This document shows, in pieces, positions 4,870-58,504 of a DNA stretch of 64,000 bases. The stretch comes from Mobula birostris. Its lineage: Eukaryota. The stretch's first letter is position 1. Each line of letters begins with the position of its first letter. The DNA lies in assembly GCF_030028105.1 (NCBI RefSeq), contig NC_092374.1:171516432-171580431 (forward strand), read 5' to 3'. The notes beneath the pieces are model-generated. The model searched no databases. It had not been told where the DNA came from and worked only from the letters and a program-made list of their open reading frames with translations. Made by a program: the position numbers and the translations under genes.

Positions 4870-5685
4870 AGTAAGACAGCAGAACGTTATTTAAAGGAAG
4901 GGACGTTACAGTGCAGCGGGATCTGGGTGAACTTGTAGGTGAAGCCGTCAGTGTCCAGTCCTGGCAAGTAATTCCGAAGGCAAATGAAACATCAGGAGCG
5001 GGAGAGTACGGAAGTTGGGGAGGCCTTACCAGACTGGTACCGGGCCATAATGAGACCATTACTGAAGAAGGGTTGTGTCTGCACTGAAGGCAGTGCAGGG
5101 AAGATTTATTGGCTCCACTCCTGGGTTGTGGGGATTAATGTGCGGAGAGAAGCTGAGCATCTTAGGCCTTTATTTGTGGGAGTTTAGTAGACTGAAATGT
5201 GTAAGGCTCCGGGGACAACACACAATCTGCTGTCAGAACTCAGTGGGTCGAGCAGAGGAAAGAGATGATTGATATTTTGTGTTGAAATCCTGATGCAGAT
5301 GTTCCTAATTCCTTCCCCTCCCCACATCCCAACAGATGCTGCTCCACCCACTGAGTTCTTCTAGAGTCTGTGTTGTGCTTCAGCTTCCAGTATCTAAAGT
5401 CCCTTACGTCTCCAAGGTTCTGCAGGGAATTGGCCGGGTGGGTGCTTTCCCCTCATGATCTAGAACCTTTTCAACGCCATGGACCGATACCATTAAGCAA
5501 TGGGTCCACGAACCCCAGGTTGGGAACCCCCAATCTAGAACATGGAGACTCGCTTCAGAATAAGGGGCTGGCTTTTAAAATAGGGTGAGGGACTTCCTTC
5601 TCACACCCTCCCCCACCCCGCCGAGGCTGAAGAATCTTTGGAATTTTCTACCTCAGGAAGTTGTGGAGGTCTGTCACTGCATTTA
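4870..5685 (+). mobile_element. Decayed CR1 fragments hosting an old PLE fold-back (~5213-5410) and a hAT MITE
   Basis: Degenerate QRDLG, VQGRF, LGLYLWEF and NLWNFLPQ motifs. Confidence 0.65.
5466..5532. mobile_element. hAT (Charlie/Buster-like) MITE with deleted left TIR
   Basis: Right end aggttgggaacccc; 8-bp TSD atctagaa at 5458-5465 and 5533-5540 matches the NTCTAGAN target preference. Confidence 0.65.
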
Positions 5686-6231
5686 CTCAAAGTTCAAAGT
5701 AAATGTCACTACTTCCTACCCTGAGATTGATTTTCTTGTGGTCATTTGCAGTAGACCAAAGACATTCAATAGAGTCAGTGAGAAACCACACACAAAGAGT
5801 GACGGCCAAGGTGTAAAGGAAGATAAACTGTGACAAAAAATAATATTGTGAACGCAAGTTGTAGAATCTTTGAAAGTGAGTCAATAGGTCGTGGAATTAT
5901 CTACAGTTTATCCCACAGTTTACCTCAAGGCTGCGATAGAGTCGATAATCAACAGCGGGGGATCAGGGCGAAAGGGCACATGGTCTTACTAATTGATCGA
6001 AGAGGTTAGAGGAGTGAATGCCAGTCTCCTGCTTCTGACTCTTGCGGTCTGATCCCAATGCAGCAAAACATCCAGCAGCATCTCAAAGGACCAAGCTCAG
6101 AAAAAGGTTGATTCGCAGGGAATGCTCAGGCAAGATTTCAAAACCTTTTTTTTGTTTAAACACAGTTGTTGATACCTGGGACTTGCCACCTGAGAGGGTA
6201 GTGGGGTCCGACACAAATACTACGTTCAAGA

Positions 6232-6378
6232 AACACACATAAAAATTGCTGGTGAACGCAGCAGGCCAGGCAGCATCTATAGGAAGAGGTACCTCCCATA
6301 GATGCTGCCTGGCCTGCTGTGTTCACCAGCAATTCTTATGTGCGTTGCTTGAAATTCCAGCATCTGCAGATCTCCTCG
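6232..6378. mobile_element. Penelope-like pLTR-derived fold-back insertion
   Basis: Near-perfect inverted arms (tgctggtgaacgcagcaggccaggcagcatctat) plus a 3' tail; 14-bp TSD tactacgttcaaga/tactacatgcaaga (6218-6231, 6379-6392). Confidence 0.85.
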
Positions 6379-6829
6379 TACTACATGCAAGAGGTTTTTT
6401 TTTAGGTAGACTGTCTCTCTTTCTGCCCTTTGCTCTTTTACAATGCTTCTTAAGATCAATTTTCTTGGTAAAGTCAGAGTGATGCAGCACAGAAACAAGC
6501 TCATGGCTTGTAACTGTGGAACGGAACATCAGAGAAAGCACGTTTGAAGAAATCCCTAATGCACATAATCCTCTAAAAGCAATGCTACTACAGAGGGGAA
6601 AAAAAAAATTCCCATTCTGATACAAGAAGTGCACAGGTCTAGCTCTAATTGCAGCTTTTAGTACACTACATCCCAATTCATTCAAACCTTCCAAAGAATT
6701 TTACATCATCTGACTGAATTTGAAGCAAAGACACAGTGGGCAGTTGTGCAATAGTCCTGTCATGGAGGGGGGATTTGAGGAGGGTCAAGTGATGAAGGAG
6801 GGGCAGAGATTTAGGGAAGCAATTGTGCA

Positions 6830-15955: not shown

Positions 15956-16159
15956 ACTTTAGAGCAGTGCTTTGTCTTGTTCTCAATATCCAACGTGTAC
16001 ATTAAACCACAAGCAGGAAATATTTGTCCAGGCGAAGGGTTTCTACCTGAAATGTAGACTATCCAGTTCCCTCCATGGATGATTCCTGACCCACTGAGTC
16101 CCCCGCAGAGCTTTTAGTTGTGCTCCAGTCTCCAACGTCTGCAGTCTCCTGACATTCCA

Positions 16160-17584
16160 AGCAACACACACTGGAGGAACTCAGCAGGTCAGGCAGCATC
16201 TATGGAAAAGAGTACAGTCAACATTTCGGGCTGAAACCCTTCGGCAGGACTGGAGAAAAAAATGAGGAGTCAGAGCTGGAAGTCGGGGGGAGTGGAGGAA
16301 GAAACACAAGGTGATAGGTGAAACCGGGGGGGGGGGGGGGGAGTGGTGTAGTAGAGAGCTGGGAAGTTGATTGAAAGAGATACAGGGCTGGAGAAGGGGG
16401 AGTCTGATAGGAGAGGACAGAAGGCCTTGGAAGAAAGAGAAGGTGGAGGAGCACCAGAGGGAGGCAATGGCCAGGTAAGGAGATAAGGTGAGAGAGGGGA
16501 AAAGGGATGGGGAATAGAGAAGGGGGGCCATTACCGGAAGTTAGAGAAATCGATGTTCATGCCATCAGGTTGAAGGCTACCCAGACGAAATATAAGGTGT
16601 TGTTCATCCAACCTGAGTGTGGCCTCATCGTGGCAGTGGAGGAGGCTATGGATACTCATGGTGGAATGGGAATGGGAATGGGAAGTGGAATTATAATGGG
16701 TAGCCACTGGGAGATCCCGCTTTTCCTGGTGGATGGAGCATAGATGCTCAGCGAAGCGGTCTCCCAATCTACGTTGGGCCTCACCGATATATAGGAGGCC
16801 GCACCTGGAGCACGGATACAGTAGATGACCCCAACAGACTCACAAGTGAAGTGTCGCCTCACCTGGAAGGACTATTTGGGGCCCTGAATGGTAGTGAGGG
16901 AAGAGGTGTAGGGGCAGGTGTAGCACTTGTTCCACTTGCAAGGATAAGTGCCAGGAGGGAGATCAGTGGGGAAGGATGAATAGACAAGGGGAGTTGCGTA
17001 GGGAGCAATCCCTGCAGAAAGTAGGTAGCCTCCAACCTGATGGCATGAACATCAATTTCTCAAACATCTGGTAATGCTCCCTCTTTCTCTATTCCCCATC
17101 CCTTTCTCCCTCTTTCACCATATCTCCTTGTCTGCCCATCGCCTCCCTCTGGTGCTCCTCCCCCTTTTTCTTTCTTCCATGGCCTTCTGTCCCCTCCTAT
17201 CAGACTCCCCCTTCTCCAACACACATCAAAGTTGCTGGTGAACGCAGCAGGCCAGGCAGCATCTGTAGGAAGAGGTGCAGTCGACGTTTCGGGCCGAGAC
17301 CCTTCGTCAGGACTAACTTCTCCAGCCCTGTATCTCTTTCACAAATCAACTTCCTATCTCTTTACTTCACCCCTCCCCACCTCCCAGTCTCACCTATCAC
17401 CTTGTGTTTCTTCCTCTCCTCCCCCCACTCCTCGTCCTTTTTTTTCTCCAGTCCTGATGAAAGGTCTCGGCCCAAAGCGTCGACTGTATTCTTTTCCATT
17501 GATGCTCTGCCTGGTCTGCCGAGCTCCTCCAATATTTTGTGTGAGTGTTGCTTGGATTTCCAGCATCTGCAGATTTCCTTTTGT
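16160..17584 (-). mobile_element. Penelope-like element: GIY-YIG endonuclease C-terminus plus pLTR (16160-~17020, minus) and inverted pLTR (~17021-17584, plus)
   Basis: FTCESVGVIYCI, GDRFAEHL..LPVATHYNS..EQHLIFRLGSLQPDGMNIDF; 13-bp TSD tcctgacattcca/tcctgacgttcca (16147-16159, 17585-17597); hammerhead motif in each pLTR. Confidence 0.9.
17278..17315 (-). ncRNA. Minimal type I hammerhead ribozyme with intact core
   Basis: Minus strand: uaguc-CUGACGA-a-gggucucggccc-GAAA-c-GUC^gacug; stem I and stem II pair; stem III reduced to the palindrome ACGU. Confidence 0.8.
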
Positions 17585-18439
17585 TCCTGACGTTCCATGA
17601 AGTGTTTGAAAATACCACACATTTTGCTGTGAAGGATGAGATACTGAAGTAGTCCTGTCTTCTCTCTGTAAAAGTGGACAACTTTGCCCTGTGACCTTGA
17701 GCATCATTTGACCTCCAACCTACTGACTGCAGTAACACAGTTGATCTAGTCCTTGTTGTTGGCGGGAGAGAGCTGTGCGCAAATTGGCTGTCGTGGGACA
17801 GCAGCGAAGGCACGTCACGGGTATTTTGCTGGTTCTGGGACCCCCCCTTGACGTTGTCAAAGGCATTGTTGATACAGAATTTCGTGTATAACAACACAAG
17901 GCTGCTGCTGTACAAGCTACTAGCTGTAACCTTTGGGGACCATGTGACAGGAATAACAATCTGCAGCCAGCCCTGCTGCTTTATCACAAAGCTCTTTGCA
18001 TGAGTGTTAACCGTACAGAGTTCGTGCATTATTCTTACCACCACGTCATTACTCCCAGTCCTCTGGTTCCTCCCCCAGAACAAACGTGTATAGATTGGAC
18101 AGTTAATTGCCTGCTGTAATTTATTACCACTTTAGTTAAGTTGTAAAACAATCTATCATGGAAGAGTTTCAGGGCCACAGGAAAAGAGGCAGGCGAAAGC
18201 CATTACGGGCCAAATAGCTTCAATCTGTCATACAGTACTTCAGCACTGAAAACACACCCTTCAGCCCATCTCATTGGAGGAGGATATCATTTTAAGGAGG
18301 TTGGGAGAAGTTATGGGGGATGTCCGAGCTAGGTTTTTTACAGAGAGTGGTGGGTACATGGAACGCACTGCCAGAGCTGGTAGGAGAGGCAGATACACTA
18401 GGGCATTTCAGAAAATCTTACATAGGCACATGAATGATA

Positions 18440-19020
18440 GAACACTGAGGCTGTCTACAAGAAGGGTCAGAGCAGTCTCTATTTCCTGAGGAGACTGAGG
18501 TCCTTTAACATCTGTCGGATGATGCTGAAGAGGTTCTACGAGTCTGTGGTGGCCAGTGCGATCATGTTTGCTGTTGGTGTGCTGGGCAGCAGACACCAAC
18601 AGAATCAACAAACTCATTCATAAGGCCAGTGATGTTGTGGGGATGGAACTGGACTCTCTGACGGTGGTGTCTGAAAAGAGGATGCTGTCCAAGTTGCATG
18701 CCATCTTGGACAATGTCTCCCATCCACTACATAATGTACAGGTTGGGCACAGTAGTACATTCAGCCAGAGACTCATTCCACCGAGATACAACACAGAGCG
18801 TCATAGGAAGTCATTTCTGCCAGTGGCCATCAAACTTTACAATTCCTCCCTTGGAGGGTCAGACACCCTGAGCAACAGGCTGGCCCTGGACTTATTTCCT
18901 GGCATAATTTACATATTACTATTTAACTATTTATGACTTTATTACTATTTAATTATTTATGGTGCAACTGTAATGAAAACCAATTTCCCTCGGGATCAAT
19001 AAAGTATGACTATGATTATG
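18440..19020 (+). mobile_element. Rex1/Babar 3' end (second subfamily; tail also at ~22933-22975)
   Basis: YKKGQSSLYFLRRLRSFNI..FYESVVASAI; RHRKSFLPVAIKLYN; tail caataaagtatgactatgattatg. Confidence 0.85.
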
Positions 19021-19669
19021 TTAGGTAGAAGGGGAAATTTATTTATTTATTTGTTTATTTGTTTTGAATTACAGTACAGAGTAAGCCCTTCACCCCAGCC
19101 ACCCCAATTATCAAACTAAAAAGATAGTTTGATCCTAGGGCAGGTCAAAAGGTCGACATAACACTGTGGGCCAAAAGGCCGACACTGTGCTGTTCTATTC
19201 TATGCCCTACATCCCAGTCTGTGCTGAACTGATCTCCTGTCCAGACCTGTCTACCTGCCCAAGCCCACTTTCCTCCAAAACCCTGCCATCCAAACTTCCC
19301 TTCATTGTTATAATTTTAACCCGCGCCCACCACTTCCACTGACAGCTCATTCCACACTCGCGCTACCCTCTGAGTGAAGAAGTTTCCCTCAGACTCACCT
19401 TTCCACCCTAAACCTGTGACCTCTGGTTCGGGTCTCACCCAACACGAGGGTAAAAGTTTGCATGCGTTCACCATTTCTATACCCCTCATAATTTCCTACA
19501 CCTCGATAAGATCTCCGCTCATTCTTCTGTACGCCAGGGAATAAAATCCTGACATTCAACCCTTCCCTTTTGCTGTGCATAAATGAGTAAACTACCCCTG
19601 TCAATTATCATTGATTATCCCATGTATGACCTGTCAATCAGCAAGGGGTGAAATGGCAGTTCAAAACAG

Positions 19670-20440
19670 TTCAAGATGTTCAAAGATCAAACTTCAAAGT
19701 AAACCTGGTATCGAAATACTTATATGTCACCATATACTACTTTGAGATTCATTTTCTCACGGGCATTTACGGTGCAAAGAAAAGAAATTCAGTAGAATTT
19801 AGAATACCAGCACCACAGTAGCGAGGCAGTTAGCGTAAAAGCATAGTAGCGTCCTGCCGAAGGGTTTCGGCCTGAAATGTCAACTGTGCTTTTCCATAGA
19901 TGCTGCCTGGCCTGCTGAGCTCCTCCAGCATTTTGTGTGTGCTGCTCGGATTCCCAGCATCTGCAGATTTTCTCTTTTGTAATGCTATTACAGCATGGGC
20001 ACTCTGGAATCCAGAGTTTAGATCTGGTGCTGTTCTGTATGGAGTCTCTGTACGTCCTCCCCGTGGAATGCCTGGGTTTGTTCCCTGTTTCCTCCACAGT
20101 CCAAAGGCGTACCGGATAGGTCAACTGGTCATGGTAAGTTGTCCTGTGATTAGGTTAGGGTTAATTGGGATTGTAGGGTTGTTGGGGCAGCAGGGCTTAA
20201 AGGGCGGGAAGGGCCTACAACGAGCTGAATCACTAAATAAATGAATAAATTTATGAAAAACTGTATTTAACAAAGTCTGAAAAGCATTCAATATGCAAAA
20301 GAGAACAAATCATGCAAATAATACATTTTTAAAAAGTAATGATTAATACTGAGTTGTAGAGTCCTTGAAAGTAAGCGTGGAATCAGTTCAGCATTGAGGT
20401 GAGTGAAGTTATTCATGCTGATTCAGGAGCTTGATGGTTG
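19670..20440 (-). mobile_element. Rex1 3' UTR containing a V-SINE (~19808-20250, +), which itself contains a PLE hammerhead insert (19851-19978, +)
   Basis: Similar to 100-480; SINE head and V-domain; gtc-ctgccga-agggtttcggcct-gaaa-tgtc. Confidence 0.8.
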
Positions 20441-21335: not shown

Positions 21336-21689
21336 TTAGGGTCTTATTTTGATAGAGACGGCAGTTCTGAGGTACACTGCAGTCTCTGTATGACCTTCTG
21401 ATCAAACAGGAAAGACATGTACATGAAAGTACAAAATCTTTACCCCTCCACACATGTACAGAGCTCGACTCACCAGTGCCAGATGGAGAGTGAGTCACTC
21501 ACTAAACTGGTTACATTAAATTATTGAAGGAGAATTCTGCAAGGATGGTCAGCTCTCTTGGCATCTGAAAACTGGGATGAATTGTTTGTAATCGGCCTTT
21601 TGAATCGACTGCCCGGAGAGAAAGTTCCATTTTCTTACAGCAATGCTTTCTTTTCAACTGATGCAAAAGAAAACGCCTGGCTGTCTCAG

Positions 21690-21830
21690 GGACAAGAGAT
21701 TCTGTGGATACTGGAAATCTTGAGCAATGAGCACAAAATGCTGGAGACACTCAGCGGGTCAGGCTGTTGGCTGATTATTCCCCTCCATGGATGTTGCTGA
21801 GTTCCTCCAGCATCTTATGTGTATTGCTCC
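21690..21830. mobile_element. Old PLE pLTR fold-back remnant
   Basis: cacaaaatgctggag...ctcagc and gctgagttcctccagcatc inverted arms. Confidence 0.7.
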
Positions 21831-22754
21831 TGAGTGTCTCAGTCAGGTCACCCATCAGCCTTCTCTTTCCCAGGAAAGAAGCTACAGCCCATTCCATCCT
21901 TCCTGATCGGTTCAGCATCTCAGTCCTGGAATGCTGTCACGCATGGCCCCTGGGATTCTGGCTGTGACCCAAGCCTTTATGTTGCTGTACAGTGCCTCAC
22001 GCTTCTTCGTTGTCGAAACCTAAGCAACCACGCGTACATCAAGTTTTATTGATCTGTGTACGTTGATTAATTTCAGTTCCCTGCCCTGATCAATGGCAGT
22101 AATGCAACACCATCAGCAATTCCCTCAATAACCACAATATCCCCTGGCTGACTGTCCTGTTTAAAGCTATTTACCACACAAAATCAAACCTGATCCCTCC
22201 GAAGGGAATAGCACCAGCCTGATTGCTTCCCAGTGCTTAACACAGCCAGGTGGCAGCTCAGCTGGTGAAGGGAAGAAGCAGGAAAACAAGTCAAATGCAC
22301 TTCCTTCAAGTTAGGATTTAGGATATCCCAAACCTCTTCACACCAGGTGAGATTTTTAATTTTTGCAGTGTGCAATTTATAGGGGGCACAGATAAGGTGG
22401 AGATTTTTTCACAGGATAGGTAATCCAAAACTAAGAGGCGTAAATTCAGGGTGAGAGGGGAGAGATTTAAAAGTGACCTGAGGAGTGATGTTTTCATGCC
22501 GAGGATGCGTAGTGTCTGGAAGTAGTTCAGGCAGATACAATAGTATGATTTAAGGAGCATTTAGATGGGTGTATGGAGGGGCAACAATGGGCCAAATGCA
22601 GGAAATTGGGACTGGCTGTGGTCAGTATGGACGGGTCAGGCTGAAGGGCCTGAACACCTGCTGCATTGCTGTGTGACCCTATGTTGGTGAGCTGGGACCA
22701 GAAGGCAGTTTCTGCACAGCTGGCACCTACTGATGTGACAGTGGGCAAATATCT

Positions 22755-24544: not shown

Positions 24545-26123
24545 TTGCGCAAAAGAGAAAAATGCTAGCTTATTTAACCTATCCTCAAAAGACGTGCTCT
24601 CCACGTCAGGCAGCATCCTGGTAAATCTCTTCTGCACTCCCTCTAAAGCTTCCACATCCTCCCTATAATGAGGCAACACTATACTCCAGGTGTGGTCTAG
24701 CCAGAGTTTGATGGAGCTGCGACATTACCTCTTGGTTCTGGAGCTCAACCCTCCAATTAACAAAGGCCACCACACACACACCTTCTTAACACCCTATCAA
24801 CTTTTGTGACAACTTTGAAGGATCCACGGGCGTGTTTAATAACATTTTTCCTGCAACAGCGTGGCCAAAAACTGTCATGTCTGTGGAACGTAAAGCCACA
24901 AAGTTCTGCCAGCTGAGCTGTGGATGAGACAGTGATAGTGCACCCTGCTCTCTTCAGTTCAAATACCACAACACTGCAGGGCACCATCCTCATAACTACT
25001 GGTGAATAGGTAGGATCGGTGGCTGCCCTCCAATTACTAGTGCACCGGGGACTCCATGGGAATGGACTCTACATGGGAAGTCTCCTGGGAACATTGACAA
25101 CTACAAAAGAAACAAATCATAATGTCTTAAAACCCAACTGTGGTAACAAGTGAGCAACTGACCGATTTATTCCACTGTTCTTAACACTATTTCTACAAAA
25201 TAGCGTTCAACAAATTGTTCAACAAATTCAAGAAGGGCTTGAAATTAATGAATTTTGTGTCATTTCAGAGTATATCCAAGGAAGACCCCAGAAGGACAGA
25301 TAAAAGGTGGGAGTGAATACAAATTTTACACTGGATAAAACTGAATCATATTTATGTTACACCAGTCCATTTAAACAGGGGCACACCTGTCACTGACATA
25401 AATAATGGACTAATATTTGCATTGCTGGATTACACACAGGACTTAGGTAGATTGTTTCTTTTGTCAAATAAAATACAGATCATAGAACATCGAATACTAC
25501 AACACAGGAATAGATCCTTCAGCCCAACATGTCAGTGCCGACCACGATACTGATTTAAACTGATCCTGTCTGCCCACACATGGTCCGTTTCCCTCCATTC
25601 CCTACATGCTCATGTGTCTGTCTAGACGTCTGTTAAACATTACTGGTATATCTGCTTCTACCAACCCACCTGGCAGTGTGTCCAGTCAGCCATCACTTTC
25701 TGTGTAGCATAGAACATAGTACACTACAGGACCTTTGGCCCAGAATGTCATGCAGATCTTTTAACCTACTCCAAGATCAATCTAACCCTTCTTTCCCACA
25801 TAGTCCTCCATTTTTCTTTCATCTATATATCTATCTAAGAGTCTCTTAAATACTCCTAATGTGTCTGCCTCTAATGCAATCCCTGGCAACTCATTCCACT
25901 CACCCATGTTTGTCTGTGTAAAGAAAGCCTCTGACGTCCCCCATACACTTTCCTCCAACCACCTTAAAATTATGCCATCTCACATTAGCAACTTCCACAC
26001 CAGGAAAAGGCACAGGCTGTCCACTCTATCTGTGTCTCGTCACCATATACTCTTCTATCAAGACACCACTCACCTTCCTTCACTCCAAAGAGAAAAGCCC
26101 TAGTTCACTCAACCTGTCCTCAT

Positions 26124-26219
26124 AACCCTCGAAGGGTTTCAGCCCAAAACATCGACTGTACTTTTTCCATAGAGGCTGCCTGGCTTGCTGAGTTCCTCCA
26201 GTATTTTGTGTGTGTGTGT
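26124..26219 (+). mobile_element. 96-bp PLE hammerhead-region insert in CR1
   Basis: cgaagggtttcagcccaaaacatcgactg...gtgtgtgt; 9-bp TSD tgtcctcat (26115-26123, 26220-26228). Confidence 0.8.
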
Positions 26220-26454
26220 TGTCCTCATCTTCTCTACTCCAAGCAACATCCTGGTAAATCTCCTCTGCACCCCCTCTAAAGCTTCCAAATTTTTCCTATA
26301 ATGAGGCAACTAGAACTGAACACAAAAGTGTTGTCTAAGAGGGTTTTATAGAGCTCCATTAGCTTCCCGCCCCTGACCAATAAATACACCATGCACCTGC
26401 TTAACCACCTATTAGCTTGACAATTCTGAGGGATCTACGGACTTTGACCTGAGC

Positions 26455-28329: not shown

Positions 28330-29057
28330 CACTCAGTGGCCACTCTATTAAGTACAGGAGGTACCTAATAAGCTGGCTACTGAGTGGATGTTCGCGGCCT
28401 TCTGCTGCAATAGCCCATCCACTTCAAAGTTTGACATGTTGGGTGCCGAGAGTGCTCTTCTCCACACTGCTGTTGTAACGCGTGGTTATTTGAGTTACTG
28501 TCTCCTTCCAGTCAGTTTGAATCAGTCTGGCCATTCCCCACTGACCTCTCTCATCAATAAGGCATTTTCGTCCACAGAACTGCCACTCACTAGAGGCTTT
28601 GGGGTTTTTTTGGCACTATTCTCTGTAAATTCTAGAGACTGCTGTTCGTGGAAATCCCATGAGATCAGCAGTTTCTGAGATACTCAAACCAGCCCATCTG
28701 GCACCAAGACACACACAATGCTGGAGGAACTCAGCAGGCAGCAGGACCGTCCTGCAGAAGGGTTTTGGCCTGAAATGTTGACTGTACTCTTTTCCCAGAT
28801 GCTCCTCCAACATTTTGTGTGTGTTGCTTGGATTTCCAGCATCCGCAGATTTTCTGTTGTCCACGTGGCTCCAACAATCATTCCACATCATTTACACTTC
28901 TTCCCCATTCTGCTGTTCGATCTGAACAACAGCTGAACCTCTTGACCATGCCTGCGTGCTTTTATGCATTCAGTTGCCGCTCTGAATGGCTGATTAGGTA
29001 TTTGCATTAATGAGCAGGTGCACAGGTGTACCTAATAAAGCAGCCACCATAAGTCTA
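28330..29057 (-). mobile_element. Tc1 non-autonomous element with a doubled TIR, containing a PLE insert (28708-28865)
   Basis: TIR cactcagtggccactctattaagtac; GARWAGLSISETADLMGF; PLE insert has TSD tggcaccaa/tggctccaa. Confidence 0.85.
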
Positions 29058-32607: not shown

Positions 32608-32669
32608 GAGGTATAGAAAAATTATGAGGGTTAGTGACAGGGTGAATGCATGGAGGTTTTTCCCCTCAG

Positions 32670-35564: not shown

Positions 35565-35729
35565 CTAACTATCCAAACACTCAGTACCAATGACCAAGGG
35601 ACACTTAACTACCCAGCACTCGGTATTAGTAACCAAGGGACATTTATCTACCCAGCAATCAGTACCAGTGACCAAAAGACATTGAACTACCCAGCACTCG
35701 GTACTGATGACCAAAAGGACACTTAACTA

Positions 35730-36931: not shown

Positions 36932-38084
36932 TAACTACCCAGCACTCGGTACTAGTAACCAAGGGACACTTAACTACTCAACAATCGGTACTAGTGACCA
37001 AAAGACATTTAACTACCCAGCAATCGGTATCAGTGACTGAGGGATACGTTACTAACCAAACACTTGGTACCAATATCCAAAGACTACTGAAGTACCCAAA
37101 TACTCCCAAATACTTAGTACCAGTGACTGAAGGAACCTTAACCACCTAACTCTCAACACCAATGATCGAGGGACACTTAACTCCCCGACACTAACAGTAA
37201 TTGCGGGACACTTTGCTCACAGCACTGAGTCAGCACACCAGGGTGTGTTCACCACATCTACATCCAGTGTTATTTTTAGCTGGCTTGTTCTTGTTGTGCC
37301 ACTGACTGATGATAATTGGCTCCCACTTGAGGAACATGTCGGTGGCGAGTGTGCAGCCTAACCTGCACAAATTGGCATCCTGCCGCGGCGAAAAACTGGG
37401 ATAGGTATCACAGGGACTAAAATCCCGATCACTGCTTCCTAACGAGGAGGAGGCCTCACATTTTTGTAGCACCCTTCACAGCCTCAGGACAGCCCATGGG
37501 AACAGAGGTGCTCGGTGAATCTTGCAATACCGGTCTTCCTCTCCTGCCTCGCTTTGTAAGAGGAGGTGAGACCAGCCCAGAGTCACACAGGATGTACACA
37601 GCATCTTCAGCCCATCGACTGTGTGCTGGCCACCCTTATACACCAGTCCTATCAGGACTTCTCAGCTCCAGCTCAGGGTTAATTAAAAGTGGCCAAATTG
37701 ACCTACCAAACTTCAGTAACCACCATGGATGAGACCCCAGGCCGGGATCAGACTGAGAAAATAAAAATGTGCGCCTGAGCAAAATGACATTGAAGTGATA
37801 CTCTGAGGTGATGAACAAGGACAAGGGGGAAGAACCTCCCACTATCAACTAACTGACAGCCCAACCTAACCTTACAGACACTGTAGTGACATTCAACATG
37901 CAATGGCCGATATGTAAAGGGTTTCAGTAACAAGGATAGCAGACTAGTGAGTGCCGCCATTCTGGTCAGTACAGTTACCGCGAACATCACGTGTACAGTT
38001 ACCATGGTGAGTACAGTCTCCCTGTGAACACCACATGATGTGGTGGCCAGTACAGAAACTTGGATGGTACAGGGGTAGGTACGG

Positions 38085-40823
38085 CTACATCAAGTGCCGG
38101 GCTTTAGATGTTTCAGAAAGGACAGGGAGGGAGGCAAAAGAGATGGGGGCATGGCACTGTTGATCAGAGATAGTGTCACGGCTGCAGAAAAGGAAGAAGT
38201 CATGGAGGGATTGTCTATGGAGTCTCTGTGGGTGGAAGTTAGAAAAGGAAGGGGTCAATAACTCTACTGGGTGTTTTTTATAGACCACCCAATAGTAACG
38301 GGGACACCACGGAGCAGATAGGGAGACAGATTCTGGAAAGGTGTAATAATAACAGAGTTGTCGTGGTGGGAGATTTTAATTTCCCAAATATCGATTGGCA
38401 TGTCCCTGGAGCGAGGGCTTTAGATGGGGTGGAGTTTGTTAGGTGTGTTCAGAAAGGTTTCTTGACACAATATGTAGATATGCCTACAAGAGGAGAGGCT
38501 GAACTTGATCTGGTATTGGGAAATGAACTTGATCAGGTGTCAGGTCTCTCAGTGGGAGAGCATTTTGGGGATAGTGATCACAATTCTATCTCCTTACCAT
38601 AGCATTGGAAAGGCATAGGAACAGACAGGTTAGGGAAACATTTAATTGGAGTAAGTGGAAATATGAGGCTATCAGGCAGGAACTTGGAAGCATAAATTGG
38701 AAACAGATGTTCTCAGGGAAACGTACAGAAGAAATATGGCAAATGTTCAGGGGATATTTGCATGCGGTTCTGCGTAGGTACATTCCAATGAGACAGGGAA
38801 AGAATGGTAGGGTACAGGAACCATGTTGTACAAAGGTTGTTGTAAATCTAGTCAAGAAGGAAAGTAGAGCTTACGAAAGGTTAAAAAAAACTAGGTAATG
38901 ATAGAAATCTAGAAGATTTTAAGGCTAACAGGAAGGAGCTTAAGAATAAAATTAGGAAAGCCATAAGGGGCCATGAGAAGGCCTTGGCAAGCAGGATTAA
39001 GGAAAACCCCAAGGCATTCTACAAGTATGCTAAGAGCAAGAGGATAAGACGTGAGAGAATAGGACCAATCAAGTGTGACAGTGGGAAAGTGTGTATGGAA
39101 CCGGAGGAGATAGCAGAGGTACTTAATGAATACTTTGCTTCAGTTTTCGCTATGGAAAAGGAGCTTGGCCATTGTAGGGATGACTTGCAGCAGACTGAAA
39201 AGCTTGAGCATGTAGATATTAAGGAAGAGGATATGCTGGAGCTTTTGGAAAGTATCAAGTTGGATAAGTCACCGGGACAGGATGGGATGTACCCCAGGCT
39301 ACTATGGGAAGCGAGGGAGGAGATTGCTGAGCCTCTGGAGATGACCTTTGCATCAACAATGGAGACAGGAGAGGTTCCGGAGGATTGGAAGGTTGCGGAT
39401 GTTGTTCCTTTATTCAAGAAAGGGAGTAGAGATAGCCCAGGAAATTATAGACCAGTGAGTCTTACTTCAGTGGTTGGTAAGTTGATGGAGAAGATCCTGA
39501 AAGACAAGATTTATGAACATTTGGAAAGGCAAAATATGATTAGGAATAGTCAGCATGGCTTTGTCAAAGACAGGTCATGCCTTATGAGCCTGATTGAATT
39601 TTTTGAGGATGTGACTAAACACATTGATGAAGGTAGAGCAGTAGATGTAGTGTATATGGATTTTAGCAAGGCATTTGATAAGGTACCCCATACAAGGTTT
39701 ATTGAGAAAGTAAGGAGGCATAGAATCCAAGGGGACATTGCTTTGTAGATCCAGCATTGGCTTGCCCACAGAAAGCAAAGGGTGGTTGTAGATGGGTCAT
39801 ATTCTGCATGGAGGTCAGTGACCAGTGGTGTGCCTCAGGGATCCGTTCTGGGACCCCTACTCTTCGTGATTTTTATAAATGACATGGATGAAGAAGTGGA
39901 GGGATGGTTAGTAAATTTGCTGATGACATAAAGGTTGGGGGTGTTGTGGACAGTGTGGAGGGCTGTCAGAGGTTACAGCGGGACATTGATAGGATGCAAA
40001 ACTGGGCTGAGAAGTAGCAGGTGGAGTTCAACACAGATAAGTGTGAGGTGGTTCATTTTGGTAGGTCAAATATGATGGCAGAATATAGTATTAATGGTAA
40101 GACTCTTGGCAGTGTGGAGGACCAGCGGGGGTCTTGGTGTCTGAGTCCATAGGACACTCAAAACTGCTGCGCAGGTTGACTCTGTGGTTAAGAAAGCATA
40201 TGGTGCATTGGCCTTCATCAATCATGGGACTGAGTTTAAGAGCCAAGAGGTAATGTTGCAGCTATATAGGACCCTGGTCAGACACCACTTGGAGTACTGT
40301 GCTCATTTCTGGTCACTTCACTACAGGAAGGATGTGGAAGCCATAGAAAGGGTGCAGAGGAGATTTACAAGGATGTTGCCTGGATTGGGGAGCATGCCTT
40401 ATGAGAATAGGTTGAGTGAGCTCGCCTTTACTCCTTGGAGTGACGAAGATTGAGAGGTGACCTGATAGAGGTGTATAAGATGATGAGAGGAAACGATTGT
40501 GTGGATAGTCAGAGGCTTTTTCCCAGGGCTGAAATGGCTAGCATGAGAGGGTATAGTTTGAAGGTGCTTGGAAGCAGGTACAGAGGAGATGTCAGGAGTA
40601 AGTTTTTTTTCGCAGAGAGTGGTGAGTGCGTGGAATGGGCTGCCGGCAACAGTGGTGGAGGCGGATACGATAGGGTCTTTTAAGAGACTCCTGGACAGGT
40701 ACATGGAGCTTAGAAGAATAGAGGGCTATGGGTAAGCCTAGTAAATCTAAGGTAAGGACATGTTCAGCACAGTATTGTGGGCCGAAGGGCCTGTATTGTG
40801 CTGTAGGTTTTCTATGTTTCTAT
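38085..40823 (+). mobile_element. CR1 LINE ORF2 (APE endonuclease plus RT), multiply disrupted
   Basis: VGDFNFPNIDW, GDSDHNSI, KSPGQDGMYPRLL, GNYRPVSLTS, DFSKAFDKVPH; 3' tail. Confidence 0.95.
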
Positions 40824-44986: not shown

Positions 44987-45277
44987 GTAAATTATTTGCA
45001 ACATGTCCCTTCGGGCTATGCTTCCCCGCAAGTTTATGCTGATTTTTTGATAGAGTATCCAATATGTCCCACTCCCCTGTTCCCTCCTCACAGCCATGGA
45101 TTTACAGCATGGAAACAGGCCCTTCTGCCCATCTGGTCCATGCTGAACAAGATACCCCATCCAAGCTAATCCCATTTTCCAGTGTTTGGCACATAACTTT
45201 TTAAATGTTTCCTACCTATTTACCTATCCAGCTGTCCTTGAAAAGTTATTATTCTACCTGTCTCCACACTTCCTCTG

Positions 45278-47347
45278 GAATAAATCAAGGAAGGTAGTGC
45301 ACCCGTGGCTGACAAGAGAAATTAGGGATAGTATCAATTCCAAAGAAGAAGCATACAAATTAGCCAGAAAAAGTGGCTCACCTGAGGACTGGGAGAAATT
45401 CAGAGTTCAGCAGAGGAGGACAAAGGGCTTAATTAGGAAGGGGAAAAAAGATTATGAGAGAAAACTGGCAGGGAACATAAAAACGGACTGTAAAAGCTTT
45501 TATAGATATGTAAAAAGGAAAAGACTGGTAAAGACAAATGTAGGTCCCCTGCAGACAGAAACAGGTGAATTGATTATGGGGAGCAAGGACATGGCAGACC
45601 AACTGAATAATTACTTTGGTTCTGTCTTCACTAAGGAGGACATGAATAATCTTCCAGAAATAGTAGGGGACAGAGGGTCCAGTGAGATGGAGGAACTGAG
45701 CGAAATACATGTTAGTAGGGAAGTGGTGTTAGGTAAATTGAAGGGATTGAAGGCAGATAAATCCCCAGGGCCAGATGGTCTGCATCCCAGAGTGCTTAAG
45801 GAAGTAGCCCAAGAAATAGTGGATGCATTAGTGATAATTTTTCAAAATTCGTTAGATTCTGGACTAGTTCCTGAGGATTAGAGGGTGGCTAATGTAACTC
45901 CACTTTTTAAAAAAGGAGGAAGAGAGAAACCGGGGAATTATAGACCGGTTAGCCTAACGTCGGTGGTGGGGAAACTGCTGGAGTCAGTTATCAAGGATGT
46001 GATAACAGCACATTTGGAAAGCGGTGAAATGATTGGACAAAGTCAGCATGGATTTGTGAAAGGAAAATCACGTCTGACGAATCTCATAGAATTTTTTGAG
46101 GATGTAACTAGTAGAGTGGATAGGGGAGAACCAGTGGATGTGGTATATTTGGACTTTCAAAAGGCTTTTGACAAGGTCCCACACAGGAGATTAGTGTGCA
46201 AACTTAAAGCACACGGTATTGGGGGTAAGGTATTGGTGTGGGTGGAGAATTGGTTAGCAGACAGGAAGCAAAGAGTGGGAATAAACGGGACCTTTTCAGA
46301 ATGGCAGGTGGTGACTAGTGGGGTACCGCAAGGCTCAGTGCTGGGACCCCAGTTGTTTACAAAATATATTAATGACTTGGATGAGGGAATTAAATGCAGC
46401 ATCTCCAAGTTTGCGGATGACACGAAGCTGGGTGGCAGTGTTAGCTGTGAGGAGGATGCTAAGAGGATGCAGGGTGACTTGGATAGGTTGGGTGAGTGGG
46501 CAAGTTCATGGCAGATGCAATTTAATGTGGATAAATGTGAAGTTATCCACTTTGGTGGCAAAAATAGGAAAACAGATTATTATCTGAATGGTGGCCGATT
46601 AGGAAAAGGGGAGGTGCAACGAGACCTGGGTGTCATTATACACCAGTCATTGAAAGTGGGCATGCAGGTACAGCAGGCGGTGAAAAAGGCGAATGGTATG
46701 CTGGCATTTATAGCGAGAGGATTCGAGTACAGGAGCAGGGAGGTACTACTGCAGTTGTACAAGGCTTTGGTGAGACCACACCTGGAGTATTGTGTGCAGT
46801 TTTGGTCCCCTAATCTGAGGAAAGACATCCTTGCCATAGAGGGAGTACAAAGAAGGTTCACCAGATTGATTCCTGGGATGGCAGGACTTTCATATGAAGA
46901 GAGACTGGATGAACTGGGCTTGTACTCGTTGGAATTTAGAAGATTGAGGGGGGATCTGATTGAAACGGATAAGATCCTAAAGGGATTGGACAGGCTAGAT
47001 GCAGGAAGATTATTCCCGATGTTGGGGAAGTCCAGAACAAGGGGCCACAGTTTGAGGATAGAGGGGAAGCCTTTTAGGACCGAGATTAGGAAAAACTTCT
47101 TCACACAGAGAGTGGTGAATCTGTGGAATTCTCTGCCACAGGAAACAGTTGAGGCCAGTTCATTGGCTATATCTAAGAGGGAGTTAGATATGGCCCTTGT
47201 GGCTACGGGGGTCAGGGGGTATAGAGGGAGGGCTGGGGCGGGGTTCTGAGTTGGATGATCAGCCATGATCATAATGAATGGCGGTGCAGGCTCGAAGGGC
47301 CGAATGGCCTACTCCTGCACCTATTTTCTATGTTTCTATGTTTCTAT
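45278..47347 (+). mobile_element. Young 5'-truncated CR1 LINE; ORF2 intact except for one nonsense codon
   Basis: ORFs 45186..45881 and 45885..47249 are in frame, separated by TAG 45879-45881 where PEDW is expected; full RT motifs; (tttctatg)n tail. Confidence 0.97.
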
Positions 47348-49621: not shown

Positions 49622-50412
49622 AGAACACAAGAAATTCTGCAGATGCTGGAAATCCAGAGTAACAATGGCAAAATGTTGGAAGAACCCAGCAGGTCAGGCA
49701 GCGTCGATATAAAGGAATAACCAGACAATGTTTCTGGCGGAGACCCTTCATCAGGACTCCACACCTATTTTATTTACACCAGACCTGTTGTCCTTCACGA
49801 TTAACCAAAATAATCAGTGGGTCTTCATCCAAGAAGACTGGAGCAAAATCTTTGATTTCTCTGCCGTATTCTTAATCCCTATCACAACACACAAAATGCT
49901 GGAGGAACTCAGTAAGTCAGGTATCATCTGCAGAGGAGACTGGACAGTTGATGTTTTGGGTCGAGACCCTTCATGAGGGCTAGAAAGAAGGAAGACAGCC
50001 AATGTGAAAAGGTTAGCCGGGTGTGGCACAAGAACCAGTGGGTGATAGGTGGATCCAGGTGAGGGGGAGACCATAAAACCATAGGGCATAGGAGCAGAAT
50101 TAGGCCATTTGGCCCATTGAGTCTTTTCTGTCATTTCGCCACGGCTTATTTGTTGATGGGAGAATGGGAATGATGTCAGAAGCCAGGAGGTGAGGGGTGG
50201 AAGTGATAAAGGAATAAAGAAGCTAAAATCTGATAGCAAGGACAGTGGACTATGGAGGTGAGGAGAAGAATTGGAAGGAGAGAGGTATGGGTGATGGGCA
50301 GATCAAACTGGTGGGGTAGGGAAAGAGATGGAGTGATGTGCCTGGTGGGATAAGGGATAAAATGGGGGGACAGAGCAGAGTGGTTACTAGAGAAATCAAT
50401 GTTCACGCCATC
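49622..50412 (-). mobile_element. Two PLE pLTR copies (49622-49758; 49885-50412) with degenerate hammerheads
   Basis: Minus strand gtc-ctgatga-agggtctccgcca-gaaa; ctcatga-agggtctcgaccc-aaaa; ORF end MNIDFS. Confidence 0.8.
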
Positions 50413-51033
50413 TACTTATTCCTCATACACTTCTGTTTCAGTTGAGGGAGATTCCAAAACCACGTGATACATTGCAACAAGAAAGTAGCCACTAAATCAA
50501 TCCAGGTTGTTTTCCATGGGTAGCTGGGAGAATGTGGAATGCACTGTCTGCAGGAGAGTTCATGGTGAGGAACATTTAACAGCAAGCTGGATATACCCAT
50601 GGAATAGAGGGAGCAGCTGATGGAGAAGGGTGGTAAGAAGTTAGGTGCATGACAGGAATTTCAGTACGAAGCAGAGGTGTAGAATGGCCCATTTCTACTT
50701 AATACTGTTGGAAACTATGAGTCTACTTCAGCAAACACACTTGATTGTTTTATCTAGAGGCCAGGGTCCTGCATATATTCAGCTCATTCGTCCTCATAAG
50801 CAATTCTTTTAAGCAAGGCCACAAATTCCTCTCAAATCAGAATCTAATCATTTTGAAGGTTCCATAGAGTGAGATCAGCAATTGGCTGACTGATTGATTC
50901 ACTGATAAATTGCTTAAGGGAGGCACCATTTACTTCTTCTGGCAACTGACAAAAAGCTGACTTGTGCACTACAAACTATCTTAGCCACTCTAACATTGCA
51001 AAGGAGGTGAGCAATGTCCTTTCTAGCAGGAGA

Positions 51034-54796: not shown

Positions 54797-55995
54797 TTAC
54801 AGTGAACTAAGTCAGTCAGTCAGGAATGGACGCCTTGAGGTGAGGGATTGAAAGTGTGTTGAGTTTACCAGTTGCAAAAGGTAAAAATTACTCTCTCCCA
54901 CAATGATAATGTTTAACACATTTTCCCCACGTTATGCACACAATGATGAACAACTGAGAGGCATACAGTTTAGGAGCGGCTGTCAATTGTATCTGCCTCT
55001 CATAGACTAAAAACAATAATACAAGCAATTGCAGGATTCACCAGGTTGAGGCACAACATTGAGTCATAATTTGGAAGGCATCGTCACTACAACAAACTGC
55101 AGCCTTTTTTAGGCAGCTTCAGGTTCCTATGCTTAACTAAATATGGAAACAGGATGAACAGCAATGAAGGGTGTGCATGTTCTATGCAGTCAAAAGTTCT
55201 CTCGTGGAGAGGGTGTCAAGCCATGGATAGAGAGCTCCGCCTTGGAAAGATCCCAAGAAACTCTGGAGGAAGAACATCAACAACTGCCCTGGTGACTTGA
55301 GCCAATACTTACAATAACATTGTTGGATTGGGTGTGTATAATTGTTGTGTTTCTTGTAGTTTAACCTTATATAATCACCTCTATGCATGTGAGTTTTCCA
55401 CTGGTTATAGCTGCCTCTGTATTTTTGTGGAAACTTCTTGATTTCGTTTGCGAATGTCACATTACTTGAATCTGGCTATCTTAATGGTTAACTGCGATCA
55501 ATGGAATTTCTGTTACCTTTGCTCTGGTATGAGTAGACTGCACTATTTTTTAATCTCTCTCTTTCCTTTGTCTCTTGTCCTGCTTCTTCATCTCTCACAC
55601 ACAAAATGCTGGAGGAGCTCAGCAGTTCAGGCTGTATCTATTGAAATGAATGAACTGTCAACGTTTTGGCGGAGAACTCGATGAATCTCAGGGTAGGATA
55701 TGGTGATACATATGTAGTTTGATAATAGATTTACTTTGGACATTGAGTCTGCTGGGTTAGTCCAAGTCCGAATCCAAGTCTGCTGGAGGCTGGACGGTGA
55801 AGAAGGTGGCCTTTCTTGGGGTTGGAGGACTGGACATGGGTGGGAAGGAGGAACAGGGCTTGTTTTGCTGTTGTTGTTTACTTGCTTGTGTTCTGCCGAA
55901 CATTGTTGGCACCAGAATGAGTGGCGATACTCGTGAGCTGCCCCCAGCAAACCCTCAGTTTACTTTGGTTGTTATTGCAATCAATGCATTTAACT

Positions 55996-56205
55996 AACAC
56001 ACAGTAAATGCTGGAGGAACTCAGCAGACCAAGCAGCACCTATGGAAAAAAGTGCAGTCAACATTTCGGGCTGAGACCCTTTGGCAGGACTCTGTCCCAA
56101 ACCATCGACTGTACTTTTTTCATTAGATGCTGCCTGCTGAGTTCCTTCAGCATTTTATGTGTGTTGCTTAGATTTCCAGTATCTGCAGATTTTCTTTTCT
56201 TTGTG
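55996..56205. mobile_element. PLE pLTR fold-back insertion with hammerhead motif
   Basis: Inverted arms; perfect 13-bp TSD aatgcatttaact (55983-55995, 56206-56218). Confidence 0.9.
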
Positions 56206-58504
56206 AATGCATTTAACTGTATATTTCAATGTACACTTGATACATAAACATGAACTTTTAATCTTCTGTATACCACCAAACACTCAGTGAAAAACATACC
56301 CCTCAGATCCTTTTTGAATTCTTTCCCTTCTTACTTCAAACCTACGCTCTTCAGTTTTAGACTCCCTACCCTGGGACTAAGACTATGACCATCCACCAGA
56401 TCTATGCCTTTATCCTCAGTGACTGTTCAACACCTTGCAACACCCAAAGCTGGGAATGGTGATTGGCTTCCTTCACTTTGAAGAGTGCAGACAAAACCAA
56501 GGGAACCACTCTTAATTCTCATCAGTATTTCATATGCCTATTTGTAGAAGCATAAAGCCTGGCTCAGTGTGCACCAAGTTCAACAATACCAGCAACAATG
56601 GCATACCTGCACGAATCTCTCAAGCACACTTTCTCAGCCAAGTGATTCCAATGCAGTTAACCTATCATGACCTCAACAGAGGGTAGTGAGTACCAGGAGG
56701 AGCTAACAAAGATAGTGGTCAAGAAAGGTACAATTTCAACATTTAAAAGGCATTTGGATAGATACGTGGAGGGGGAGGGCTTCGAGGGTTATGAATTGAA
56801 CATGGACAACTGGGAATAGCAGGTCTGATGCAGTGGTCAACATGGACCAGTGGGCTGAAGAACTTGTTTGCATACTATATCATTCTGTGCTCTAAGGCTC
56901 TGCTTTCCACTGGCTTTCTGAACTTCACAAACTTCATTTCATCCAAATTACTGAGGCTGAAACCCCCAGCACCAACAATTCCCTGCTTCCTGGGTTTATA
57001 AACCCAACCACGTCACTTTCACCTCCAGTTCATCCAGGACTGAAGTGAGAAAGGTTGTGAGTCCTTACAAGTCTCTTCCCTAGATGTTACAAAGGCTTCA
57101 GTCATCCTACCTGGTATCATGAAGGTGATATAGAAATGCAGGGATTTCTTGCATTTTGGTAAGTTCAAGTGACACCATGGCCAAGAATGACCCTGCTTCC
57201 ATTTCTTATATTCCTGTTAAACATGTGCAAATGTAGGTGTCCCTTTCTCTGGTCACCTCTTTTGTCCTTTACCACCCGTCCCCCAGCTGTGGAGGCCAAC
57301 TTTTTAAAGTTGATGTTAATAGGTTCTTAATTGGTAAGGATGTCAAAGGTTATGAGGAAAAGGCAGCAGAGTAGGGTTGAGGAGGGAAGATAAATAAACC
57401 ATGACGTAATAGCAGAGGATATTCAATGGACCAAATGGCCTAATTCTGCTCCTATACCTTATGGTCTTATGGTTACCTAGATTCACCACCTCCTCCATTG
57501 GCTCATCTAGTTCCATCTACCATCTACTCGCACCCCACCCTCTCCTCTTAATACTGGCTAGCTTCCTCCAGCGCTCTTGCAGAGTCCCATCCTGAGCCAC
57601 CCTTTTGCCTTCACAGATGCTAACTGACCCATTGAGTTCCTCCAGTGGCGTGTTCTTGCTCCAGGTTCCAGTGGCTGCAGTTTCTTGTGTCTCCAGCGAG
57701 AGACGGCCTCTCAATGGAAGATCCCAAGATTCAGGATAGAAGGGTGCCATTGGGAGGAAAGCCAATCACCAGGGGACAAGTTGAACACCTGAATTTCCAG
57801 TAACAGCTTGGCCTGTGCCAGAAATTATCATTATAGCGTCCATTTTCCAGGAGGAATTTATTTAATGGTGATCACTAATTACTCTTACACAATAATATGT
57901 AATAATTATGTGGTTTTGTCAGTTTTAGTCTTGGTTTGTCCTGTTTTTTTTGTGATATCATTCTGGAGAAACGTATCATTTTTAATGCATGCATTTCTAA
58001 ATGACAATAAATGAAGACTGAGTGTCCTCATAATCTAATCTAAAAAATTTAATAAAATTCAAATTCAAAGCTGTAAACAAATACAACCTCAAAACCATGC
58101 ACCTTTAACCATGATCTGAAGACATTCATTCCCATTATTGGTGTAAGGATAGTACAAAGTAGCTACAGAACATTGGGATGAAATGCCTGGACTTTAAACC
58201 AGAGGTTCTGGAGAGCCACCAGTTAACCGAGTATGCTGTAGCTACTCAATGACTGAAAGGTGGAGTGCAGGCGTACACTTCTGAGGGGCAAATATACATT
58301 ATGCGCCAGAGATCAATAGGATCTGCAAACAAGCCCAGTCAGTGCCAAAGATTACAAAAGGCAACATAGAGGTCAACCCAGTGATTCTCAGAGTAGCTGA
58401 GCTACACTGCAGAAACGGGTTGTAAGGATGGTATGGCTCAAAGGCCAGAAGGGCCACACCATGCTTTAGCGCTAAATAAATAATAAATAAAAAACTAAAT
58501 AAAC

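What the first reader, a model, noticed from the sequence alone, without database searches (positions are those of the whole stretch)
5213..57695. Dense family of short Penelope-derived hammerhead inserts with 8-14-bp TSDs
Seen: at least 12 related inserts (about 5213, 6232, 16030, 16160, 17219, 19851, 21690, 26124, 28708, 49622, 49885, 55596, 55996, 57600). Six have clear TSDs of 14, 13, 8, 9, 9 and 13 bp. Several begin at or within a few bases of the hammerhead (17316, 19851, ~26130, 28749, 49758, 56091), and only one retains substantial GIY-YIG coding sequence. Inference: the ribozyme fold defines a preferred boundary (RT stall, template-jump site or RNA end), generating a SINE-like non-coding population.
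Basis: partly seen in the sequence, partly recalled or inferred. Interest (0 to 1): 0.7.

Follow-up and report, generated by a model that had tools for sequence, protein, structure and literature searches.

The report
Penelope stubs ending at splice acceptor
This ray-like genome window holds 14 mostly short insertions of the end of a Penelope-type jumping gene, a known kind, and many of them stop at one spot at the upstream edge of its small ribozyme motif, a spot that is likely also a splice site and likely the cause of the stop.

Summary
Observation confirmed. There are 14 insertion events (20 arms) of a Penelope-like element's terminal repeat, from several subfamilies, in a ray-like genome. 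The six reported TSDs are real, three with empty sites in window paralogs; a seventh was found. 5' ends cluster in an 8-nt window at the upstream edge of hammerhead stem I (9 of 20 by eye, 7 of 20 automated; p about 1e-4 corrected), not at the cleavage site 30 nt downstream.

The ribozyme is a poor cause: it folds weakly, and a stall would fall at its other edge. The cluster sits on a strong splice-acceptor motif closing a predicted 285-nt intron whose ends are used in ray gene models.

These are ordinary Penelope insertion products (inverted arm, 35-nt tail, TSD), not SINEs or retrozymes. Not found in my searches: the splice-site link, one tail in all 6 two-armed events, and TSDs of 13-14 bp (two-armed) versus 8-10 bp (single-armed). 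The genome-wide test could not be run. The scan noted the same clustering earlier in another shark-like genome.

The parts
5213..5412 (.). E1: old two-armed insertion; minus arm about 5213-5298 (no tail, 5' end near the boundary, uncertain), plus arm about 5300-5412 (tailed)
   Evidence: no significant TSD
6232..6378 (.). E2: two-armed insertion, subfamily 2; junction about 5 nt past the hammerhead cleavage site; TSD 6218-6231 / 6379-6392
16026..16148 (+). E3: old single-armed tailed copy, 5' end at -1
16161..17023 (-). E4 long arm (no tail): GIY-YIG C-terminal coding piece, predicted intron, hammerhead; left TSD copy 16147-16159
16533..17023 (-). Decayed linker and GIY-YIG endonuclease coding sequence (CX4CxxC linker, CxxC inside the GIY-YIG core); last 93 codons open
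16250..16534 (-). Predicted 285-nt GT-AG intron, 80% pyrimidine: donor at the ORF stop codon, branch-point-like motif at -24, acceptor abutting hammerhead stem I
   Evidence: gene-model support from relatives
16215..16252 (-). Hammerhead motif of the E4 long arm (core variant with C at position 6); predicted cleavage site after +30
17024..17584 (+). E4 tailed arm; starts 47 nt upstream of the predicted donor; right TSD copy 17585-17597
17219..17316 (-). E5: 98-bp single-armed tail-less copy, subfamily 2, nested in E4; the only intact canonical minimal hammerhead; 5' end at -4; exact TSD 17211-17218 / 17317-17324
   Evidence: (empty site at 16389-16396)
19851..19979 (+). E6: single-armed tailed copy, 5' end at -1, about 12 unexplained bases upstream, no clear TSD
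21692..21828 (.). E7: two-armed insertion, tailed arm on minus strand; TSD 21676-21689 / 21829-21842
26126..26219 (+). E8: single-armed tail-less copy inside a LINE-like repeat, 5' end at +1 to +7; exact TSD 26115-26123 / 26220-26228
28708..28860 (.). E9: two-armed insertion; tailed plus arm starts at 28749 (-1); TSD 28694-28707 / 28861-28874
   Evidence: three empty paralogs
49622..49758 (-). E10: single-armed tailed copy, 5' end at -2 with 4-nt overlap into a weak TSD
49885..50416 (-). E11: old long tail-less copy crossing the predicted intron, ending about 30 nt upstream of the donor; carries a piece of another repeat
55596..55680 (-). E12: single-armed tail-less copy ending inside stem II, no clear TSD
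55996..56205 (.). E13: two-armed insertion; minus arm ends at 56091 (-2), plus arm starts in stem II; exact TSD 55983-55995 / 56206-56218
57574..57693 (+). E14: old single-armed tailed copy, 5' end between -9 and +6 (uncertain)

Best explanation
The inserts are short, TSD-flanked copies of the terminal repeat of a Penelope-like retrotransposon, likely made by the element's own enzyme, and their 5' ends pile up at a predicted splice acceptor beside the hammerhead, likely because reverse transcription of unspliced RNA halts there rather than at the ribozyme. Steps: (1) Inferred: the GIY-YIG endonuclease cuts both target strands about 13-14 nt apart. (2) Inferred from the fixed 3' ends and Frangieh 2024: reverse transcription starts at one of two sites flanking the 35-nt tail. 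(3) Shown: 3' ends fall in two classes, and every two-armed event has one of each. (4) Inferred: when both target ends prime, the two cDNAs join head to head and the full 13-14 bp TSD is kept; when one primes, its end is joined by microhomology and the TSD is 8-10 bp. (5) Shown: 5' ends cluster at -4..+3 and none lies deep in the predicted intron. (6) Inferred: the barrier lies upstream of the ribozyme, most likely splicing factors bound to the pyrimidine tract and AG, or a cut made at that site. The class assignment is about 0.9 sure; the stated confidence is for the splice-site cause.
For: Cluster: 9 of 20 arms in -4..+3, hazard 0.15 per nt against 0.009 downstream, p 2e-7; 7 of 18 without two uncertain ends, p 1.6e-5 (1.3e-4 after x8); 5 of 16 without two further unanchored ends, p 8e-4. 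The AG at the boundary ranks in the top 0.03-0.1% of 9,207 AGs in three copies by a crude score, with a branch-point-like motif at -24. Three ray gene models (P0018, P0019, P0020; 3 of 4 hits) enter the terminal-repeat frame at the same residue after unrelated host sequence; E5 matches P0018 at 31 of 32 residues and begins at that entry point. Two isoforms of one locus (P0004, P0024) and P0017 leave the element's ORF exactly at its stop codon, where the GT donor lies. In D. virilis Penelope the intron also ends at the 5' end of helix I (PMC4209133) and transcription starts 45 nt upstream of the donor (PMC2377424); two of the three long arms here end 47 and about 30 nt upstream of the donor. 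The 121 nt upstream of the boundary have no stable fold (-2.6 kcal/mol), so a block there would be protein or an RNA end.
Against: Only 20 arms from one window; the 8-nt window was chosen after looking, and arms of one event are not independent. Splice acceptor, stem I 5' strand and an initiator-like motif overlap within 5 nt, so these copies cannot separate them. Gene models are automatic predictions seen only as proteins; no spliced RNA or spliced genomic copy was seen. The subfamily-2 intron is not in the window, so its AG is inferred. The acceptor score rewards any pyrimidine-rich stretch, and the donor matches consensus at only 4 of 7 scored positions. No protein roadblock to a Penelope reverse transcriptase was found in the papers read. 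The read-laying run did not resolve the boundary. Eight arms end downstream of the boundary for other reasons.
Confidence: 0.45

Rival explanations
1. The boundary is a transcription start. A Pol II initiator overlapping the AG makes short RNAs that begin at the hammerhead, and reverse transcriptase runs off their 5' end. Any solo terminal repeat could then seed new copies, which would be SINE-like in life cycle.
For: A YYANWYY match lies at -4..+3 with its A at -2 (consensus recalled). Two arms start at that A. A sharp edge with no ends just beyond is what an RNA end gives. Penelope promoters are internal to the terminal repeat. An earlier scan note read the pattern this way (a lead only).
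Against: Such a motif falls in any 8-nt window 8% of the time. The three least ambiguous starts (E3, E6, E9) lack the A. The A in E10 and E13 is shared with target or partner-arm letters. In D. virilis and Chlamys-3 the start lies upstream of the intron.
Confidence: 0.25
2. The hammerhead itself sets the boundary, by stalling the enzyme, by closure of stem I in the RNA or cDNA once it has been copied, or by self-cleavage.
For: The ends coincide with the 5' strand of stem I in two subfamilies. Four arms end at +27..+38, near the cleavage site. The Anolis ribozyme folds with help from the element's protein.
Against: Cleavage would give ends at +31, and that window is not enriched (4 of 20, p 0.08). 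A stall would sit at the 3' edge of the fold. The fold is weak (-13.6 kcal/mol, z -1.0). In Anolis, ribozyme mutants did not change insertion products and no RNA ends mapped at the cleavage site.
Confidence: 0.12
3. Reverse transcriptase slips off on entering the U-rich pyrimidine tract, where the RNA-DNA hybrid is weak, and end joining trims the cDNA back to the boundary.
For: A run of 7-8 U lies at about -7..-14, and the predicted intron is 80% pyrimidine.
Against: None of the seven clear ends keeps any of the U run or the letters between it and the AG, and none of three arms that passed the boundary ended within the 285-nt tract.
Confidence: 0.1
4. The cluster is a small-sample or alignment artefact: longer copies from subfamilies with different upstream sequence look as if they ended there.
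For: Upstream sequence differs between subfamilies, and the largest loose-end piles in the read-laying run reflect such divergence. E3 and E6 have no TSD to anchor the end.
Against: E5 and E8 have a TSD at the end, E9 and E13 run straight into the opposite arm, and the cluster survives dropping unanchored ends (5 of 16, p 8e-4).
Confidence: 0.08

Closest known systems
Insertion units of endonuclease-positive Penelope-like elements (PMC3846280, PMC8557442, passages; PMC2377424, parts 1-3 of 4)
   Same: 5' truncation, adjacent inverted copy, 30-40 bp tail on one end only, TSDs of 8-10 bp in rotifer examples, intron and promoter in the terminal repeat.
   Different: Here most copies are only 85-210 bp and very abundant. 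The passages read do not report a pile-up of 5' ends at the intron end or a TSD length that depends on one-armed versus two-armed structure.
Poseidon element of Anolis, PAc (PMC11167929, parts 1-2 of 4)
   Same: Two reverse-transcription start sites flanking the tail, both target strands cut and extended, minimal hammerhead not needed for insertion.
   Different: Different clade (no CX2-5CxxC linker); its ORF starts inside the hammerhead. No full ORF start was found for this family.
Minimal hammerheads of Penelope-like elements (PMC4209133, parts 1-2 of 4)
   Same: Type I motif without a stable stem III, mostly dispersed single copies from truncated elements, pairs on opposite strands 100-700 bp apart, D. 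virilis intron ending at helix I.
   Different: That paper does not map insertion ends. One subfamily here carries C at core position 6.
Non-LTR retrozymes (PMC7229834, passages; bioRxiv 10.64898/2026.07.22.740005, parts 1-3 of 5)
   Same: Short, non-coding, hammerhead-bearing, related to Penelope terminal repeats.
   Different: Retrozymes are head-to-tail tandem units cut at the ribozyme; these are single or head-to-head copies whose ends do not follow the cleavage site.

Membership tests
EN+ Penelope-like element (Neptune/Nematis type) | C-terminal GIY-YIG endonuclease with two cysteines inside the core | tested here: met
   Translation. The 93-aa window piece alone gave no Pfam hit; relatives P0002 and P0004 hit GIY-YIG weakly (E 5e-4 and 8e-4, below the curated cut-off).
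EN+ Penelope-like element (Neptune/Nematis type) | CX2-5CxxC linker upstream of the endonuclease | tested here: met
   CX4CxxC in the E4 long arm; feature as described in PMC8557442.
EN+ Penelope-like element (Neptune/Nematis type) | Telomerase-like reverse transcriptase in the same ORF, clade by phylogeny | not tested
   No RT sequence of this family in the window. Relatives carry RT-like sequence upstream. No tree was built, so Neptune versus Nematis is not settled.
EN+ Penelope-like element (Neptune/Nematis type) | Minimal hammerhead in the terminal repeat | tested here: met
   1 of 10 spanning arms fits a canonical descriptor, 2 with a relaxed core; 0 in the reversed control. Rfam gave no hammerhead match. 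Activity untested.
EN+ Penelope-like element (Neptune/Nematis type) | 30-40 bp tail, inverted 5'-truncated copy, TSD | tested here: met
   Tail on one arm in 6 of 6 two-armed events; TSDs in 7 of 14 events, 2 more ambiguous.
EN+ Penelope-like element (Neptune/Nematis type) | Retained spliceosomal intron in the terminal repeat | tested here: inconclusive
   GT-AG motifs and gene-model junctions in relatives; no spliced RNA seen.
SINE | Internal Pol III promoter or tRNA/7SL/5S-derived head | tested here: not met
   No B-box match inside any insert (6 matches elsewhere in the window); no tRNA or Rfam hit.
SINE | One master sequence with fixed ends amplifying on its own | tested here: not met
   Pairwise identity 42-93% across several subfamilies; variable ends; 6 of 14 events two-armed.
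Non-LTR retrozyme | Head-to-tail tandem units each with a hammerhead | tested here: not met
   None of 12 tandem-repeat rows overlaps the family; paired arms are head to head.
Non-LTR retrozyme | Unit ends at the cleavage site | tested here: not met
   4 of 20 ends at +27..+38, p 0.08.
Non-LTR retrozyme | Expressed circular RNA | not testable with these tools
   Only contigs of runs guessed to be RNA were available.

The most novel reading that the evidence does not exclude
The Penelope enzyme copies its RNA while the spliceosome is still parked on the terminal-repeat intron, so the 3' splice site acts as a built-in stop that sheds very many short hammerhead-headed cDNAs. This would tie intron retention, the stub population and the two-primer insertion (one tail, 13-14 nt stagger) into one mechanism readable from genome sequence.
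Probability: 0.3. Interest if true: 0.7.

Novelty: new variant of a known kind. Interest (0 to 1): 0.4.

Why it matters
How Penelope-like elements keep introns while moving through RNA, and how they make inverted arms and tails, are open questions (PMC3846280, PMC8557442, PMC11167929). Ray genomes carry this family in very large numbers (134,602 and 158,644 contigs laid on a 600-bp piece in two runs). A sharp stop at the intron end and a TSD length that depends on structure could therefore be tested by counting alone. The elements themselves are an ordinary, described kind. The stubs also appear to donate splice sites to host gene models.

Tried and rejected
No whole genome is held, so the genome-wide breakpoint count was not possible. 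Rfam found no hammerhead at gathering score or at E <= 10 over 16000-20100. Pattern scans gave 0 hits in viral and prokaryote contigs; 114 metagenome hits were chance matches, with 1 of 114 aligning over 28 nt or more and none extending as an element.

Laying four runs on 16151-16750: depth fell across the boundary (278,577, 80,716, 16,149) but rose again to 140,997 in the next bin. The 24 loose ends shown mostly mark this copy's private deletion and subfamily divergence; 2,884 were not shown. Joints from 16208 to 16544/16545 appeared in the two runs guessed to be RNA (2 and 4 contigs) against 0 and 1 in the DNA runs, but what lies between is unknown and counting in the DNA runs was incomplete. 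None of this is used as evidence. No RNA holder was listed as on record.

No full-length ray ORF was recovered; the longest full-length relatives are 30-43% identical, so the autonomous partner is known only by its C-terminal half. Extra G from an RNA cap: rejected, since the G before E10 and E13 is explained by target or partner-arm letters. Simple fold-back of one cDNA: cannot make E1, E4, E7 or E13, where the tail-less arm reaches further 5' than the tailed arm. Spliced template: no copy carries more than 3 letters matching the upstream exon. Stop at a lariat branch point: would lie near -21, where no clear end falls.
Full report
Setting. The window is eukaryotic and rich in LINE-like repeats. 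The closest proteins to the element's coding piece come from Mobula and Hypanus, at 72-83% identity for the top five hits, so the host is probably a stingray or devil-ray relative. No whole genome is held. Positions below use +1 for the base after the AG at window 16251-16250 on the minus strand; the predicted hammerhead cleavage site follows +30.

What is there. A profile of the copies finds 20 strong segments in 14 events and nothing in a reversed control. They cover about 3.5 kb, 5.5% of the window. The one long copy (16161-17023, minus) reads: CX4CxxC linker, GIY-YIG endonuclease, stop codon, 285 pyrimidine-rich bases, minimal hammerhead, about 60 more bases. This is the 3' end of an endonuclease-positive Penelope-like element of Neptune or Nematis type (features from PMC8557442, passages). 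The arms are 42-93% identical to each other and belong to several subfamilies and ages; 1 of 10 arms that span the hammerhead keeps a full canonical motif.

3' ends and TSDs. Arms end either just before or just after a 35-nt extension, the known tail, which in the Anolis element lies between two reverse-transcription start sites (PMC11167929). All 6 two-armed events have the tail on exactly one arm; single-armed events split 4 and 4. Three have empty sites in window paralogs. TSDs are 13-14 bp in the 5 two-armed events that show one, and 8-10 bp in single-armed events (2 solid, 2 ambiguous; Fisher p 0.048 or 0.008; noticed after the fact). The 28708 TSD counts as 14 by position, while the automated search kept only its last 9. 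In 5 of 6 two-armed events the tail-less arm reaches further 5' (by 3 nt only in E2; p 0.11). That rules out simple fold-back for four events and fits two primings, one from each cut strand. This last step is inference.

5' ends. By eye: -4, -3?, -2, -2, -1, -1, -1, +1, +3? (nine arms); +10, +15, +27, +33, +36, +38, +52, +56 (eight); about -320, -332, -773 (three). Automated alignment moves E8 to +7, E14 to -9 and E1 to +3, leaving 7 of 20 in -4..+3. The end rate in that window is over ten times the rate downstream: p 2e-7 for all, 1.6e-5 without two uncertain ends, 8e-4 without two more that lack an anchor; multiply by 8 for the choice of window. The cleavage-site window is not enriched (p 0.08).

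Why there. Reverse transcriptase moves from tail to hammerhead. It meets the 3' strand of stem I first and the 5' strand last, so a stop at -1 needs a barrier upstream of the motif or the end of the RNA. The hammerhead folds no better than shuffles, and the 121 nt upstream are unstructured. What lies there is a pyrimidine tract and AG, ranked in the top 0.1% of the window's AGs in three copies, with a branch-point-like motif. A GT overlaps the ORF's stop codon 285 nt upstream. Gene models from rays use both sites: three enter the terminal-repeat frame at one residue after different host sequence, and two isoforms of one locus plus a third gene leave the ORF at the stop codon. A fourth model enters at a second AG near +50, close to two further ends (+52, +56). 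These are automatic models seen as proteins only. D. virilis Penelope has the same layout, with the intron ending at helix I (PMC4209133) and a 45-nt first exon (PMC2377424). I therefore favour a stop at the 3' splice site on unspliced RNA (0.45), ahead of a start site at the overlapping initiator-like motif (0.25), the ribozyme (0.12), slippage on the U run (0.10) and artefact (0.08). The three candidate signals overlap within 5 nt, and 20 arms cannot separate them.

SINE or retrozyme. Neither test is met: no Pol III box, no single master, no tandem units, no ends at the cleavage site. The stubs are best read as by-products of successive autonomous subfamilies. Whether stubs can be copied again is untested.

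What could not be done. The read-laying run showed great abundance in two related organisms but cut its loose-end table and did not resolve the boundary. No full ORF of the family was recovered.

Literature. Eight searches and the texts read showed the inverted arm, tail, TSD, hammerhead and intron as known. They showed no report of 5' ends piling up at the intron end or of TSD length tied to structure. Seen: PMC4209133 and PMC11167929 parts 1-2 of 4; PMC2377424 parts 1-3 of 4; the 2026 retrozyme preprint parts 1-3 of 5; passages of PMC8557442, PMC3846280, PMC6765202 and PMC7229834; no supplements. Not seen: Arkhipova 2003, 2006 and 2017, Evgen'ev and Arkhipova 2005, Lunse 2016, Repbase and Dfam, any of which may already describe this family or boundary. 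Splice, initiator and B-box consensus motifs and hammerhead numbering are recalled. Earlier scan notes report the same clustering in another shark-like genome and about 90 related findings; they are leads, not support.

Verdict. Real and correctly located. The elements are a known kind; the boundary is real in this window but probably not set by the ribozyme. Interest 0.4.

Noticed in passing
events E2, E4, E7, E9, E13 versus E5, E8, E10, E14: TSD length splits by structure: 13-14 bp for two-armed insertions, 8-10 bp for single-armed ones.
   Followed up: partly
16026-17597: Three nested or abutting insertions: E4 landed at the tail end of the older E3, and E5 landed inside E4's predicted intron next to an internal AG.
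   Followed up: partly
16201 (minus) and 19898 (plus): A second acceptor-like AG about 50 nt downstream of the first; one ray gene model (P0021) enters the repeat there, and two arms end 1 and 5 nt after it.
   Followed up: partly
16245, 19856, 28754, 56085: One subfamily has C in place of the conserved A at hammerhead core position 6 in several copies, so the change looks inherited rather than decay.
   Followed up: no
19839-19850: About 12 bases between the apparent target and the start of E6 match neither the element nor the right flank clearly.
   Followed up: no
proteins P0004, P0017, P0018, P0019, P0020, P0021, P0023, P0024: Pieces of this element appear as exons in predicted isoforms of several ray genes (STARD3NL, SIRT3, LRRC43-like, GEMIN8, ABHD14A, DIPK1C).
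   Followed up: partly
32667-33576, 35753-36931, 39643-40744: Three young LINE-like copies 85-94% alike, one inverted relative to the other two.
   Followed up: no
45147-47249: A LINE-like reverse transcriptase frame of about 700 codons broken by a single stop.
   Followed up: no
35566-35729 and 36932-37192: Two arrays of a 39-bp repeat flanking a LINE-like copy.
   Followed up: no
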